Of a stretch of 64,000 bases of DNA, positions 1,740 through 38,965 are shown in pieces. Position 1 is the stretch's first letter, and the number at the start of each line of letters is the position of its first letter. Under the pieces are notes generated by a model. It was not told the origin of the DNA and made no database searches. It saw only the letters and a program-made list of their open reading frames with translations. The stretch is from an uncultured Arthrobacter sp. (GTDB taxonomy: Bacteria; Actinomycetota; Actinomycetes; Actinomycetales; Micrococcaceae). The stretch covers positions 18,114-82,113 of the forward strand of contig NZ_CADCTE010000066.1 in the NCBI RefSeq assembly GCF_902805515.1, read 5' to 3'. A program made the position numbers and the translations under genes.

Positions 1740-6284
<4,545 letters not shown>

Positions 6285-30418: not shown

Positions 30419-30538
30419 GGAGCTTCCTCCGCACGCTTCGGAGCACTCTTCGGCACCGGCGGATGGGCACCGGCGCTCCTGCCATTGTTGTGCAGGCGGC
30501 ACACAAAATAAACAGAAGGTTTCCGGCTCGCCCGAATC

Positions 30539-30547
30539 TGTGGACAA
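30539..30547 (-). promoter_or_regulatory. DnaA-box-type 9-mer in the divergent SAF / HTH promoter region
   Basis: + strand TGTGGACAA = TTGTCCACA on the SAF coding strand. Function is inferred. Confidence 0.5.
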
Positions 30548-30661
30548 CCGGCACCTCCGGGGCCGTGGAGTGACAGAATTGAGGCAGGTCCAGCCGGGTG
30601 CCCACGGTTGGAACGGAGGCGCTCGTGGAGGCAAGGCCACGGCTGAGGAAGAGGTGTTCGT

Positions 30662-30889
30662 GTGGCTGAGAAGCGGTTCCTGACCCTCGCCGACGTTGCG
30701 GAGGTGCTCAATATCAGCTCCTCCCAGACCTACGCCCTGGTTCGCTCGGGGGAGCTTCCGGCGATCCAGGTGGGCGGGCGCGGTCAGTGGCGCGTCGAGG
30801 CACGGGTCCTCGAGGACTACATCGCCGATGCCTACCGGAGATCCGCAGCCGCCCTGCGCGGAAGCGCCGACCCGGTCAACAACGCCTGA
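30662..30889 (+). CDS. Stand-alone HTH_17 / excisionase-like (BldC-like) DNA-binding protein
   Basis: FLTLADVAEVLNISSSQTYALVRSGELPAIQVGGRGQWRV, 75 aa; no integrase nearby. Confidence 0.85.
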   Translation: MAEKRFLTLADVAEVLNISSSQTYALVRSGELPAIQVGGRGQWRVEARVLEDYIADAYRRSAAALRGSADPVNNA

Positions 30890-30901
30890 GCGTCTATGGT
30901 G

Positions 30902-31453
30902 TCAGGGGCGGGAGGCCACCGCGGCGACCGCGGCGAAGGGCAGCGCCACCACCGCCCGGACATTGGCCGGCCTGCGGTGCTCGCCCGGCGGAACGAGTGC
31001 CACCTCGAGGAAGTCGGCTCCGACCCGATCCAGCGTGCCCTCGGAGACCGTGACCGGTGACCCTGCATAGACGCTGATGTGCGCCCGGTCGCGGGCCAGC
31101 GCGCGGTAGGCCGAGGCGAGGCCCAGGCGGGCGTGGATCCCCGCCGGGCGCGGGGCGACGGCACGTCCCAGACCTTCGATACTCAGGATCGCGGCGAAGG
31201 GCACCAGGACGGAGCGCTGCCCCTCTGCGAGTACGAGCCATTCGGCGCCGACGTAGGCCAGGCTGCCGGAGAAGCCCTGCCCGTTCCCGGTCCGGACCTT
31301 CAGCCCCTGGGCGATGGAACCGGCCAGCCGGTCCGCGAGGGCCACCCGCGCCTGCTCCATCCTGAGCAGGTCTGCCGCCGCCGCTTCCTCCGAGGCCGCC
31401 CGCGCGGCCGCCAGCTGGGCCTCGAGATCACCGAACAGGGCTTCCCACCGCAT
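30902..31453 (-). CDS. Conserved hypothetical protein with two internal Sm/Hfq-like repeats
   Basis: MRWEALFGDLEAQ start (ATG 31453); internal duplication GSLAYVGAEWLVL..VPFAAI / GTLDRVGADFLEV..LPFAAV. The ORF is well supported; the fold is inferred by eye. Confidence 0.7.
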   Translation of the reverse strand: MRWEALFGDLEAQLAAARAASEEAAAADLLRMEQARVALADRLAGSIAQGLKVRTGNGQGFSGSLAYVGAEWLVLAEGQRSVLVPFAAILSIEGLGRAVAPRPAGIHARLGLASAYRALARDRAHISVYAGSPVTVSEGTLDRVGADFLEVALVPPGEHRRPANVRAVVALPFAAVAAVASRP

Positions 31454-31504
31454 GGTCCAACGGTAGGCAGGCGGGTAGAGGGGGTCAACGAATTCGAGTA
31501 GCCG

Positions 31505-31550
31505 TAAACGTATACAAGCGGTATCAAACGCGCTCAAATGGATGCAAATG
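31505..31550 (+). repeat. Five hexamer direct repeats at exact 10-bp periodicity
   Basis: TAAACG (31505), CAAGCG (31515), CAAACG (31525), CAAATG (31535), CAAATG (31545) in a divergent promoter region. Confidence 0.8.
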
Positions 31551-31564
31551 CAAGGGAGGAGACC

Positions 31565-32311
31565 ATGGAAAGGCGCTTGGGGGTTCTCTACCCTGCGGCC
31601 CTCCTCGGCCTCGGGGCGGTCCTCGTCCTCTCGGGACTGGGGCTTGCCTCCGGTGCCTCGCGGGCGCCGGAGACCGGTATCGGCGCCGTCGTCTCCGTTG
31701 CCGGCCTGGGCCTGCTGCTCTGGTGGACCGGGGCCCTGGCGCTCGCGCTCGGCGCCGAGGTCCTCAAGCGGAGGGGCCGCGCCGCCGCCGCCGCCAGGAT
31801 GGCGGCCCTCACTCCAGGCTTCATGCGCCGGCTGGCCGCCGTGCTGCTCGGGGCGAATCTCCTGGCCGCACCGTGCGCAGCCTCGGCGCCGCCGTCGGCA
31901 TCGATCCCACCCGCGGTCCCGGCACCCACGGTCGTGGTGCCGGCTGTCGCGGCCCTGACCGTTCCTGCAGACCGCGGCGAGGACCCTCAGCCCGGGCAGT
32001 CCCACCCGTCCGTTCGGGAACCGCGGGTCAGCCCGGACTGGAAACCGCTGCCGCTCCCCTGCGATCCCGGCCTGCTGGCCCGGCCGCCAAGCCAGCAGGG
32101 CGCGGCACCGGATGCGGACAGCGCCCGGGTGGTTGTCCGGAGGGGTGACTCGCTGTGGTCGATCGCCGCGGCGCGGCTCGGTCCCCTCGCCTCGGACGCC
32201 GACATCGCGGCAAGCTGGCCGCGCTGGTACGCGAGGAACGCCTCACTGATCGGCCCGGATCCGGACCTCCTGACACCGGGCCAGACACTGGCTGCCCCGG
32301 ACCCGCCCTGA
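31565..32311 (+). CDS. Membrane-anchored LysM peptidoglycan-binding protein
   Basis: N-terminal TM helices, Pro-rich linker, VVVRRGDSLWSIAAARL...IGPDPDLLTPGQTL LysM; ATG 31565 with GGGAGG RBS. Confidence 0.85.
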   Translation: MERRLGVLYPAALLGLGAVLVLSGLGLASGASRAPETGIGAVVSVAGLGLLLWWTGALALALGAEVLKRRGRAAAAARMAALTPGFMRRLAAVLLGANLLAAPCAASAPPSASIPPAVPAPTVVVPAVAALTVPADRGEDPQPGQSHPSVREPRVSPDWKPLPLPCDPGLLARPPSQQGAAPDADSARVVVRRGDSLWSIAAARLGPLASDADIAASWPRWYARNASLIGPDPDLLTPGQTLAAPDPP

Positions 32312-32361: not shown

Positions 32362-32865
32362 ATGGCCACCCTCACCCAGCAACGAAACCAGCAACGAATC
32401 CAGGAACACCCGGCCCGTGCCGCCGCACCGTGGGCCCTCCCGTCCTGCGCGGACCCACCGGAGCAGCCGCCGCCGGAGGCGCTGCTGCCGGAAGCGGAGG
32501 AGCGCGTCGGCGGCATCGCGCGCGCCGTGGCGCAGGGAGCCGTCGAGGTCCTCGGGGGCAGCCGCCCCGCCTCCCAGATGTCCCGGTGGCTCGATCCGGC
32601 CAGCTACGAGAAGCTGCACCTGCGCGCCTGCCTCATGCAGAAGGTCGCAGCCTCCGAAGCCACCGGCTCCTGCCCGGGCGGCGCCCTGGTGGACCGGCGG
32701 GCCTACCGCTGCGTGACGGTCCGCAGCGCGCGGCTGTGCCGCGTCTCCGAAACCGCCTTCGAGGCCGCCCTGGTCGTTCTGGACCGCAGGCGGGCACGCG
32801 CCGTCGCCCTGCGGGTCGAACACCGCCGCGGCGACTGGAAGGTCACCGCCCTGGAGATCGGCTGA
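32362..32865 (+). CDS. Rv3235 family protein
   Basis: AVEVLGGSRPASQMSRWL, RARAVALRVE..GDWKVTALEIG; next to secA as in other actinobacteria. Confidence 0.85.
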   Translation: MATLTQQRNQQRIQEHPARAAAPWALPSCADPPEQPPPEALLPEAEERVGGIARAVAQGAVEVLGGSRPASQMSRWLDPASYEKLHLRACLMQKVAASEATGSCPGGALVDRRAYRCVTVRSARLCRVSETAFEAALVVLDRRRARAVALRVEHRRGDWKVTALEIG

Positions 32866-38827: not shown

Positions 38828-38876
38828 GCCTTAAGGGTGCCGCGGAGGCTGGGGATGCCGGGGCACCGGCGTGCGG

Positions 38877-38965
38877 TGTGGATAAGGGGCGGTGTGGATA
38901 AGGGGCTGTGTGGATAAGGGGCTGTGGGGATAAGGGCTGTGTGGATAAGGGTGCAGTGTGGAACC
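38877..38965 (-). repeat. Tandem array of DnaA-box 9-mers (about 16-bp period)
   Basis: + strand TGTGGATAA at 38877, 38893, 38909, 38940; TGGGGATAA at 38925; TGTGGAACC at 38957. Reads TTATCCACA on the comF strand. Confidence 0.85.

What the first reader, a model, noticed from the sequence alone, without database searches (positions are those of the whole stretch)
30662..31550. 10-bp-phased direct-repeat array beside a BldC/Xis-like HTH gene
Seen: five (C/T)AA(A/G)(C/T)G hexamers starting at 31505, 31515, 31525, 31535 and 31545 (a weaker in-phase TCAACG at 31485), filling the promoter between the Sm-like and LysM genes, about 600 bp from a 75-aa HTH_17 gene. Established: BldC/Xis-type MerR-like proteins bind phased direct repeats as cooperative head-to-tail oligomers. 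Inference: this is the cognate operator, giving a BldC-like switch in a presumably non-sporulating actinobacterium.
Basis: partly seen in the sequence, partly recalled or inferred. Interest (0 to 1): 0.75.

Follow-up and report, generated by a model that had tools for sequence, protein, structure and literature searches.

The report
Phased CAAAC operator before LysM gene
The five 10-bp-spaced CAAAC-type repeats are real and belong to a promoter-embedded control element conserved in front of the same LysM cell-wall gene across many actinobacterial families, but which protein reads it (the nearby BldC-like HTH, already linked to DNA-uptake competence in Micrococcus luteus, is the leading candidate) is still unproven.

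Summary
Observation confirmed. Five YAARYG units start at 31505, 31515, 31525, 31535 and 31545 in exact 10-bp phase; shuffles give none. The claimed sixth unit (TCAACG, 31485) is instead the -35 box (TTGACC, minus strand) of the divergent leaderless gene.

The array is conserved. In 104 Micrococcaceae loci, CAAAC-type units lie 10, 20, 30 or 40 bp apart (2-5 in an unbroken run, up to 7 in phase). About 25 of 40 loci from other Actinomycetes families carry two to three GCAAAC units at the -10/start region of the same LysM-DUF6459 operon. It occurs once per genome and matches no Rfam family or structured RNA.

I read it as a DNA operator built into the LysM promoter and bound on one helix face by an oligomerising protein.

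The 75-aa HTH is BldC/Xis-like by fold (TM 0.82-0.88), not by sequence, and lacks BldC's base-contacting residues. Its M. luteus orthologue, Mlut_14660, is a genetically identified, apparently essential competence regulator.

The HTH-array link is unproven:
- the HTH stays with the SAF/CpaE operon when the cluster splits;
- one genome keeps the array without the HTH;
- the comEA promoter has no CAAAC repeats.

The divergent tandem-Sm protein is a serious rival. Interest is moderate to high.

The parts
31505..31550 (+). Array of five 10-bp-phased units (TAAACG, CAAGCG, CAAACG, CAAATG, CAAATG). The family consensus unit is cATCAAAC in Micrococcaceae and AnGCAAACg in other families.
31511..31516 (+). 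TATACA, the counterpart of the conserved T(A/G)GACA hexamer. Inferred -35 of the LysM promoter; it overlaps unit 2.
   Evidence: 57 of 104 loci have T(A/G/T)(G/T)ACA with a CAAAC-type unit exactly 24 nt downstream. The spacer sequence is free in 31 of them but its length is fixed. Inference only; no start-site data.
31535..31540 (+). CAAATG, which is CAAATT or CAAACT in relatives. Inferred -10 of the LysM promoter; it is unit 4 of the array.
   Evidence: C-first -10 hexamers (TGnCAGACT, CAAAAT) are also conserved at the HTH promoter. The strict sigma-70 scan finds nothing.
31552..32311 (+). Shine-Dalgarno AAGGGAGG (31552-31559) and the LysM membrane-protein gene (ATG 31565 to stop 32311), the gene the array controls.
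   Evidence: LysM 20.0 bits, just under the 20.9 cut-off; tblastn synteny
32362..32865 (+). DUF6459 (Rv3235-like) gene, 50 nt after the LysM stop, probably in the same operon. In one family that lacks LysM the array sits directly in front of it.
   Evidence: DUF6459, E 9.7e-29; locus L156
30902..31453 (-). Divergent 183-aa gene ('P2'): an N-terminal long helix plus two Sm/Tudor-like barrels. It is always adjacent to the array and is a rival candidate reader.
   Evidence: no family; M1-R2-W3 invariant; pLDDT 93.4; Hfq/Sm, TM 0.6-0.75 per barrel
31460..31488 (-). Leaderless promoter of P2: TTGACC (31488 to 31483), 17-nt spacer, TACCGT (31465 to 31460), 6 nt, ATG (31453).
   Evidence: GTCAA at a fixed offset in 69 of 86 loci
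30662..30889 (+). 75-aa HTH_17 protein, BldC/Xis-like by fold and the orthologue of M. luteus Mlut_14660. It is the leading but unproven candidate reader of the array.
   Evidence: PMC8467076
30539..30547 (-). TTGTCCACA box in the SAF/HTH divergent promoter. In most other Micrococcaceae a CAAAC-N5-CAAAC pair abuts this box; this clade lacks the pair.

Best explanation
The array is a DNA operator built into the promoter of the LysM-DUF6459 operon. It is a run of 10-bp units with a CAAAC core, so every site faces the same side of the helix. An oligomerising DNA-binding protein encoded in the same gene cluster occupies it and blocks RNA polymerase.

In most Actinomycetes families two or three units cover the -10/start region. 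In Micrococcaceae the array has grown to 3-7 units. In this Arthrobacter it covers the inferred -35 (TATACA), the spacer, the inferred -10 (CAAATG) and the start region.

The most likely reader is the neighbouring 75-aa BldC/Xis-fold HTH_17 protein. Its M. luteus orthologue Mlut_14660 behaves genetically as an essential negative regulator in the competence pathway. On this reading the operator ties a cell-wall-binding protein to the Tad-like competence module.

Shown: the array, its exact phase, its class-wide conservation, its single-locus occurrence, its position relative to conserved promoter hexamers, and the fold of the HTH.

Inferred: the transcription start, repression, and above all the identity of the binder.

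The confidence given is for the whole statement, including the binder.
For: - Exact phase and uniqueness in this genome.
- In 104 non-identical Micrococcaceae loci, distances between YAAAY units are 10 (157 pairs), 20 (113), 30 (55) and 40 (37), with almost none between. In 40 loci of other families, 24 pairs are exactly 10 apart and none lies at any other distance from 3 to 15.
- Units are locked to T(A/G)GACA at +4, +14, +24, +44, +54 and +64, while the distance to the divergent promoter varies from 26 to 42.
- Other families show TTGACN-17-TA(C/G)NNA-2-GCAAAC-4-GCAAAC followed by the ribosome site.
- The flanks of the A3 core are conserved (C at position 0 in 76-92%, C at position 4 in 77-83%, plus positions -1 to -3). 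That argues for base-specific reading rather than mere curvature.
- No Rfam match in the window or in 20 related loci, and the RNA fold z-score is 0.06.
- In other Micrococcaceae a CAAAC pair lies upstream of both inferred start sites of the SAF/HTH divergent promoters, that is, in untranscribed DNA.
- Exact CAAAC pairs in eight other Micrococcaceae genomes fall, apart from multi-copy repeats, only in this cluster. That favours a dedicated local regulator.
- HTH: HTH_17 at E 1.4e-12. The model (pLDDT 88) best matches BldC-DNA complexes 6AMA and 6AMK (TM 0.82-0.88, rmsd 1.2-1.4 A) and Pukovnik Xis.
- BldC binds 2-4 direct repeats head to tail, reading an AT-rich minor groove plus one C-G pair (PMC5859096).
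- The HTH is 60-80% identical across the class, with a near-invariant recognition helix and wing. The CAAAC core is equally invariant.
- Mlut_14660 missense alleles, including S27L at the end of the recognition helix, derepress comEA/EC (PMC8467076). The residue numbering fits Micrococcus locus L101.
Against: - There are no binding data and no transcription start data. RNA runs were sought three times without success.
- In one genus the HTH lies 78-108 kb from the array and stays with the SAF/CpaE operon.
- Genome G061 (98% complete) has no HTH orthologue, yet keeps a somewhat degenerate two-to-three-unit array.
- The comEA promoter, whose activity depends on Mlut_14660 in M. luteus, has a TTGTCCACA box but no CAAAC repeats in this genome. 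No CAAAC pair was found upstream of comEC in five relatives either. So the HTH may read that box instead, or may act on comEA indirectly.
- BldC's period is 9 bp, not 10, and its base-contacting residues are not conserved.
- The inferred -10 (CAAATG here) is non-canonical, and the simple sigma-70 scan finds no promoter.
- Unit flanks differ between Micrococcaceae and other families without clean co-variation in the HTH.
Confidence: 0.4

Rival explanations
1. The reader is the divergently encoded 183-aa protein P2. It has a long N-terminal helix and two Sm/Tudor-like barrels. It would bind the phased A-rich units as double-stranded DNA, or as the 5' leader of the LysM mRNA, and so control its neighbour and perhaps itself.
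For: - P2 is the one gene always adjacent to the array. This holds where the HTH has moved away or is absent and in the LysM-less locus L156.
- The model is confident (pLDDT 93.4), with Hfq/Sm matches for each barrel and a tandem-Tudor match overall.
- Invariant arginines (R42, R117, R121, R123) and an invariant N-terminus MRW..LF.DLE.Q.
- Hfq is reported to bind DNA with phased A-tracts (PMC7144919, abstract seen).
Against: - No DNA- or RNA-binding family matches P2, and Foldseek E-values are weak (1e-2).
- A 10-nt spacing does not fit the 3-nt ARN register of Hfq distal-face binding.
- In this clade most units lie upstream of the inferred start, so an RNA mechanism cannot be general.
- The CAAAC pair at the SAF/HTH promoters of other Micrococcaceae is not next to P2.
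Confidence: 0.2
2. A regulator encoded outside the cluster reads the array. Candidates are an OmpR/PhoB-type response regulator such as MtrA (mtrAB-lpqB lies a few kb beyond secA and controls cell-wall genes) or the second HTH_17 paralogue (the Mlut_02150 type).
For: - OmpR-type regulators bind direct repeats at 10-11 bp. MtrA represses when its site lies near the -10 and regulates cell-wall proteins (PMC3353115, PMC5650626).
- Some units in other families read GTAAAC.
- A mutation in the paralogue Mlut_02150 also derepressed comEA/EC (PMC8467076). This genome has that paralogue on contig C128.
Against: - Published MtrA units are (A/G)TAACAAT or GT(G/T)AC(C/N) with an 11-bp period and two units per site. 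Here the core is CAAAC, the period is strictly 10, and there are up to 7 units.
- A global regulator should have many sites, but this motif occurs at one locus per genome.
Confidence: 0.15
3. The repeats act in the mRNA. They form an unstructured CA-rich leader next to the ribosome site that binds a translational regulator or enhances ribosome loading.
For: - The last unit lies within 4-25 nt of the Shine-Dalgarno sequence in nearly all loci.
- The orientation is always CAAAC on the LysM coding strand.
- In one Micrococcaceae class three units lie downstream of the inferred -10.
Against: - No Rfam family and no structure.
- In this window's clade, and in class A generally, the units lie at or upstream of the inferred -35 and -10.
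- In other families the first unit overlaps the -10/start region.
- The CAAAC pair at the SAF/HTH promoters lies in DNA that neither inferred transcript covers.
Confidence: 0.1
4. No dedicated protein is involved. The phased A3 tracts give intrinsic curvature, or are simply the shape of an unusual promoter with repeated -10-like CAAACT hexamers.
For: - The 10-bp phasing of short A-tracts.
- Two of the units coincide with the inferred -35 and -10.
- The region is the local G+C minimum, 0.48 against about 0.70-0.75 nearby.
Against: - A3 tracts bend DNA weakly.
- The C bases flanking each tract and three upstream positions are conserved across families.
- Unit number varies from 2 to 7 while the phase stays exact.
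- The same unit pair recurs at a second promoter of the cluster in other species.
Confidence: 0.1

Closest known systems
BldC of Streptomyces and its operators at whiI and smeA-ssfA (PMC5859096; PDB 6AMK, 6AMA)
   Same: The protein is a small single-domain MerR-like winged HTH (Pfam HTH_17) and BldC is its best structural match (TM 0.82-0.88). BldC operators are 2-4 direct repeats read head to tail, each with a short AT-rich stretch plus a fixed C-G pair. The number of repeats varies between sites and they overlap promoters.
   Different: There is no detectable sequence relationship. BldC's base-contacting K26, R30, K36 and H46 are S, A, E and R here. The BldC unit is 9 bp, AATTNNNN(C); this unit is 10 bp, cATCAAAC. 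BldC has a large regulon, whereas this motif occurs at one locus per genome. Binding of this HTH to the array is untested.
Mlut_14660 of Micrococcus luteus, an HTH_17 'excisionase family' protein divergent from the SAF/CpaE operon (PMC8467076)
   Same: It is the orthologue, with the same gene order and matching residue numbering of S27 and R64 in a Micrococcus locus. Genetic evidence makes it a negative regulator in the competence pathway, and it is apparently essential.
   Different: That paper identified no DNA target and did not describe the LysM promoter or the CAAAC repeats. Its model is transcriptional interference plus possible repression of comEA/EC. The comEA promoter has no CAAAC repeats.
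Excisionase (Xis/RDF) filaments on phased sites in attP or attR, for example mycobacteriophage Pukovnik Xis (PDB 4J2N)
   Same: Same fold and the same logic of several in-phase direct repeats bound cooperatively on one face, bending the DNA.
   Different: There is no integrase, att site or prophage. The locus is core chromosome, syntenic across a bacterial class. The array sits in a promoter next to a ribosome site.
MtrA and other OmpR-family direct-repeat boxes in Actinobacteria (PMC3353115, PMC5650626)
   Same: Direct repeats near the -10 that repress, cell-wall-related targets, and conservation across the class.
   Different: These have an 11-bp period, a GTNAC-type core, two units per site and many sites per genome. 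Here the period is 10 bp, the core is CAAAC, there are up to seven units, and there is one site per genome.
Plasmid centromere/operator arrays such as parC of R1, bound by ParR
   Same: Runs of 10-11-bp direct repeats embedded in a promoter and bound by a small protein as a helical filament. A ParA-like ATPase is encoded nearby.
   Different: The array is not at the promoter of the ParA-like (CpaE/Ssd-type) gene. There is no evidence of a segregation role. The adaptor there is a ribbon-helix-helix protein, not a winged HTH.

Membership tests
BldC family (MerR-like wHTH that oligomerises head to tail on direct repeats) | Small single-domain winged HTH without the MerR coiled-coil or effector domain | tested here: met
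   75 aa; HTH_17 at E 1.4e-12. The AlphaFold model (pLDDT 88) shows strand-helix-helix-wing-helix. Top PDB matches are BldC 6AMA and 6AMK, TM 0.82-0.88.
BldC family (MerR-like wHTH that oligomerises head to tail on direct repeats) | Sequence orthology to BldC, including the DNA-reading residues K26, R30, K36 and H46 | tested here: not met
There is no PDB sequence hit at E<=1. The aligned residues are S21, A25, E31 and R40.
BldC family (MerR-like wHTH that oligomerises head to tail on direct repeats) | Operator made of 9-bp units, AATTNNNN(C) | tested here: not met
   The unit is strictly 10 bp with core CAAAC. The likeness is limited to a short A-rich stretch flanked by fixed C.
BldC family (MerR-like wHTH that oligomerises head to tail on direct repeats) | Cooperative head-to-tail multimer on the repeats, with stoichiometry equal to the unit number | not testable with these tools
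   Needs EMSA, fluorescence polarisation or footprinting.
Excisionase / recombination directionality factor | Encoded in a mobile element next to an integrase and att sites | tested here: not met
   Neighbours are SAF, a ParA-like gene, P2, LysM, DUF6459 and secA. The same order holds in 30 or more families, and the orthologue is present in 136 of 201 class genomes.
MtrA / OmpR-type response-regulator box | Two GTNAC-type units at an 11-bp period, with many sites per genome | tested here: not met
   10-bp period and CAAAC core; a single locus per genome. Published consensus sequences were read.
Described structured RNA motif (Rfam, including lysM-associated motifs) | A match to a covariance model, or a stable conserved fold | tested here: not met
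   cmscan at E<=10 on the window region and at E<=1 on 20 related loci found nothing relevant. Fold z-score is 0.06.
Intrinsic-bend element (phased A-tracts) | A-tracts of 4 or more bases in helical phase, with no sequence constraint outside the tracts | tested here: not met
   The tracts are A3, and the flanking positions 0, 4 and -1 to -3 are conserved.
Sigma-70-type promoter | -35 and -10 hexamers at 16-18 bp, and a mapped start site | tested here: inconclusive
   A conserved T(A/G)GACA-18-CAAACT arrangement (57 of 104 loci) and TTGACN-17-TA(C/G)NNA in other families. Both -10 hexamers are non-canonical, the strict scan finds none, and no RNA data could be obtained.

The most novel reading that the evidence does not exclude
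The array is read by the divergently encoded tandem-Sm/Tudor protein P2 rather than by the HTH. That would give Actinobacteria, a phylum thought to lack Hfq, a conserved Sm-fold nucleic-acid-binding protein with a defined, phased CAAAC target. It would gate a cell-wall (LysM) component of the Tad-like DNA-uptake apparatus, with the HTH_17 protein acting instead on the TTGTCCACA competence boxes.
Probability: 0.15. Interest if true: 0.85.

Novelty: new variant of a known kind. Interest (0 to 1): 0.6.

Why it matters
How natural competence is controlled in high-G+C Gram-positive bacteria is an open question. PMC8467076 says so explicitly, and so does the abstract of PMC12849477. The one strong genetic lead in M. 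luteus is the HTH_17 gene orthologous to the one in this window. It is apparently essential and has no known DNA target.

This work supplies a sharply defined, class-wide conserved, single-locus cis-element in the same gene cluster. It comes with a clear unit (CAAAC, 10-bp phase), a clear regulated operon (LysM-DUF6459) and two concrete candidate readers. The question therefore becomes directly testable by gel shift, footprint and reporter assays in laboratory strains.

If the HTH binds, it would extend the BldC head-to-tail mode of DNA reading to a different protein lineage, with a different unit length, in non-sporulating actinobacteria. If the tandem-Sm protein binds, that would be more surprising still.

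Tried and rejected
- **Tandem Repeats Finder** found nothing. The units are too degenerate outside the core, so this is not evidence against the array.
- **Rfam**, including lysM-associated motifs: no match in the window or in 20 related loci. A structured RNA was rejected as well (z 0.06).
- **Transcription start from public RNA data:** the genome is a biocrust metagenome bin. The one metatranscriptome with shared words covers only part of the DUF6459 gene. No RNA runs were listed for Paenarthrobacter aurescens TC1 or a Micrococcus locus.
- **Regulon search:** no other array in this genome. In eight other Micrococcaceae genomes the other exact CAAAC pairs were mostly multi-copy repeats, and only the pairs in this cluster fit the array. 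The tool's reversed-pattern control is uninformative because the pattern reads the same backwards.
- **BldC orthology** was rejected.
- **MtrA box** was rejected on period, core sequence and copy number.
- **Phyletic test to separate HTH from P2 as reader:** both occur in nearly the same genomes (142 and 136 of 201). Only one HTH loss (G061) and one genus with separated genes were found. G061 is the only genome of its family and order in the collection.
- **Co-variation of unit flanks with HTH residues:** Q36/S21 against K36/A21 amounts to a single lineage event, and individual loci break the pattern. Not used as evidence.
- **Reading T(A/G)GACA as the -10**, homologous to TACNAA of other families, was rejected. 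Half of the Micrococcaceae have G at position 2, and no -35 lies 17 nt upstream.
Full report
**1. The observation**

The sequence shows TAAACG, CAAGCG, CAAACG, CAAATG and CAAATG starting at 31505, 31515, 31525, 31535 and 31545. They lie between two genes:
- the start of a divergent 183-aa gene (ATG at 31453, minus strand; called P2 here);
- the ribosome site AAGGGAGG (31552-31559) and ATG (31565) of a membrane protein with a C-terminal LysM domain.

The five-unit pattern has a single exact match in the window, and none is expected in 100 shuffles. In the whole 3.74-Mb genome a three-unit CAAAY chain occurs only here. Outside this locus, 10-bp-spaced YAAAY pairs (5) are no commoner than pairs at other spacings (3-8). 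The region is the local G+C minimum, 0.48 against about 0.7.

Two details need correcting:
- The 'weak sixth' hexamer TCAACG (31485) is part of GGTCAA 31483-31488. On the minus strand this is TTGACC. With a 17-nt spacer, TACCGT (31465 to 31460) and 6 nt before the ATG, it forms a textbook leaderless promoter for P2. That promoter is conserved in more than 100 loci.
- The conserved core of each unit is YAAAC preceded by 'cAT'. The sixth base is not conserved.

**2. Genes and organism**

The window comes from an Arthrobacter genome assembled from a biocrust metagenome. P2 is 98% identical to that of A. frigidicola MDT2-14. The gene order is:
- a ParA/CpaE-like gene and a SAF/CpaB-like gene (minus strand);
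- the HTH_17 gene (plus);
- P2 (minus);
- the array;
- LysM and DUF6459/Rv3235-like (plus);
- secA (minus).

**3. Conservation**

I collected three sets of orthologous loci:
- 30 loci from relatives' genomes;
- 80 named loci, nearly all Arthrobacter, Pseudarthrobacter, Paenarthrobacter or Micrococcus;
- 40 loci from other families of the class Actinomycetes.

In 104 non-identical Micrococcaceae-type loci, distances between YAAAY units pile up at 10 (157 pairs), 20 (113), 30 (55) and 40 (37), with almost nothing between. The longest unbroken 10-bp chain is 2-5 units in 93 of the 104 loci. Composition-matched shuffles almost never reach 2. With five units, the window's array is among the longest.

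In the 40 loci of other families there are 24 pairs at exactly 10 bp and none at any other distance from 3 to 15. The periodicity is therefore present in relatives and is far older than the genus.

**4. Anatomy relative to the promoter**

In Micrococcaceae the units are locked to a conserved hexamer T(A/G)GACA, with CAAAY at +4, +14, +24, (+34), +44, +54 and +64. The distance from that hexamer to the divergent P2 promoter varies from 26 to 42 nt.

Fifty-seven of the 104 loci fit T(A/G)GACA-18 nt-CAAACT. They fall into two classes:
- In 26 loci, including the window, the spacer itself holds a unit.
- In 31 loci the spacer sequence is free but its length is fixed, and three more units follow downstream.

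Fixed spacing without sequence conservation is the signature of a -35/-10 pair. I therefore read TATACA (31511-31516) and CAAATG (31535-31540; CAAATT or CAAACT in close relatives) as the LysM promoter, with a leader of about 20 nt.

C-first -10 hexamers such as TGnCAGACT and CAAAAT are also conserved at the HTH gene's promoter across the class. That makes CAAACT less odd in this context.

In other families the layout is TTGACN-17-TA(C/G)NNA-2-GCAAAC-4-GCAAAC, often with a weaker third unit, then the ribosome site about 22 nt on. TTGAC sits at a fixed -31 in 14 of 25 loci that have a pair. The common denominator is an in-phase CAAAC array lying on the core promoter and start region of the LysM-DUF6459 operon. 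In one family that lacks LysM, the array sits directly in front of DUF6459.

All of this is inference. The strict sigma-70 scan finds nothing, and I could obtain no RNA data.

**5. DNA or RNA?**

- No Rfam family matches the window or 20 related loci.
- The region has no more structure than shuffled sequence (z 0.06).
- In the window's class, the units lie at or upstream of the inferred -35 and -10.
- In most other Micrococcaceae a CAAAC-N5-CAAAC pair also sits in the SAF/HTH intergenic region, directly abutting a TGTGGATAAC box. CAAAY occurs at -15 in 43 of 72 loci and at -5 in 33 of 72. This position is upstream of both inferred start sites.
- The C bases flanking the A3 core, and three further positions, are conserved.

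These points favour base-specific recognition of double-stranded DNA over an RNA element or mere curvature. I put this at about 0.65-0.7.

**6. Who reads it?**

The motif exists only in this gene cluster. That points to a locally encoded reader rather than a global regulator.

*Candidate A: the 75-aa HTH_17 protein.* Evidence for:
- Its model (pLDDT 88) best matches the BldC-DNA complexes 6AMA and 6AMK (TM 0.82-0.88, rmsd 1.2-1.4 A) and then mycobacteriophage Pukovnik Xis.
- BldC binds 2-4 direct repeats head to tail. Each unit is an AT-rich minor groove plus one C-G pair (PMC5859096).
- The HTH is 60-80% identical across the class, with a near-invariant recognition helix and wing.
- The literature adds a key fact. 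The M. luteus orthologue Mlut_14660 has the same divergent SAF/CpaE neighbours. Nearly all EMS mutants derepressed for a comEA/EC reporter map to this gene, its 5'UTR or the neighbouring SAF gene Mlut_14650. The alleles include S27L, S46F and R64W.
- The gene could not be deleted, and its DNA target is unknown (PMC8467076). S27 and R64 fall at the same positions in a Micrococcus locus.

Evidence against:
- It is not a BldC orthologue. BldC's K26, R30, K36 and H46 align with S, A, E and R.
- BldC's unit is 9 bp, not 10.
- In one genus the HTH lies 78-108 kb away and stays with the SAF/CpaE operon, while the array stays with P2-LysM.
- One 98%-complete genome (G061) lacks the orthologue but keeps a somewhat degenerate array.
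- The comEA promoter carries a TTGTCCACA box about 55 bp upstream of a leaderless start, but no CAAAC repeats. This holds in this genome, and no CAAAC pair turned up upstream of comEC in five relatives either.
- The HTH might therefore read that box instead, or might act on comEA indirectly.

*Candidate B: P2.* It is the only gene that is always adjacent to the array. Its model is confident (pLDDT 93.4): a 35-residue helix followed by two Sm/Tudor-like barrels. Hfq/Sm chains match single barrels at TM 0.6-0.75, and tandem Tudor domains match the pair. It has invariant arginines and an invariant N-terminus. It matches no nucleic-acid-binding family, and a 10-nt register does not suit Hfq-type RNA binding.

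*Candidate C: MtrA or another response regulator.* The published boxes have an 11-bp period, a GTNAC-type core, two units per site and many sites per genome. None of this fits.

Phyletic profiles cannot separate A from B. P2 occurs in 142 and the HTH in 136 of the same 201 genomes.

**7. Verdict**

- The array is a real, selected, previously undescribed cis-element (about 0.9).
- It most likely acts as a promoter-embedded operator on DNA (about 0.65-0.7).
- The HTH_17 protein is the best single candidate reader (about 0.35-0.4), ahead of P2 (about 0.2).

The family-level logic is sound and the protein's fold fits, but the pairing is unproven and some comparative evidence cuts against it.

The element matters because it gives the poorly understood actinobacterial competence cluster a precise, testable operator. 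It also gives the essential regulator Mlut_14660 a first concrete candidate target.

Noticed in passing
window 31460-31488 (minus strand): The divergent 183-aa gene has a textbook leaderless promoter: TTGACC, 17 nt, TACCGT, 6 nt, ATG. It is conserved in more than 100 loci. The HTH gene is likewise leaderless in many Micrococcaceae (TGGCA(A/C)AAT, 6 nt, ATG) but has a leader of about 77 nt in this clade.
   Followed up: partly
window 30902-31453 (minus strand): The 183-aa protein with no family folds confidently (pLDDT 93.4) into a long N-terminal helix plus two Sm/Tudor-like barrels. It occurs in 142 of 201 sampled Actinomycetes genomes, always next to the LysM promoter. Some UniRef entries call it 'Fis family transcriptional regulator', and I found no support for that name.
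   Followed up: partly
loci L044-L110, SAF/HTH intergenic region; window 30500-30580: Most Micrococcaceae carry CAAAC-N5-CAAAC directly abutting a TGTGGATAAC box (a perfect DnaA-type 9-mer on the SAF strand) about 41 bp upstream of the leaderless HTH start. The box's own ATAAC is in phase with the two units. The window's clade keeps the box (TGTGGACAA, 30539-30547) but has lost the pair.
   Followed up: partly
own genome contig C123, about 4430-4500: The comEA-comEC operon has a TTGTCCACA box 38 nt upstream of a TACCGT -10 hexamer and a leaderless ATG. The same layout is seen in one relative (L162). In other families the LysM promoter also carries a (G/T)ATCCACA box just upstream of its -35.
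   Followed up: partly
window 38876-38960: The comF upstream array is TGTGGATAAGGGGC repeated five times, followed by a degenerate sixth copy (GTGTGGAAC), with a 15-17-bp period. It is clearly a different element from the 10-bp CAAAC array.
   Followed up: no
SAF/HTH intergenic region of Micrococcaceae loci; window about 30480-30490: The conserved CATTGTTAC near the SAF start reads GTAACAATG on the SAF strand. That is identical to one half-site of the published C. glutamicum MtrA box, (A/G)TAACAAT. It may simply be the SAF -10.
   Followed up: no
L037 (WNZI01000011.1): A contig labelled Vibrio cholerae strain 35D carries an Arthrobacter-type HTH-P2-array-LysM locus (P2 46% identical to the window's). 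That assembly is probably contaminated.
   Followed up: no
L154 (genome G061) and L151/L153 (genome G179): Two natural rearrangements of the cluster. In G061 the HTH gene is absent and P2 is followed directly by the SAF and ParA-like genes. In G179's genus the HTH-SAF-ParA unit lies 78-108 kb from P2-array-LysM-DUF6459-secA in two genomes and on a different contig in three others.
   Followed up: yes
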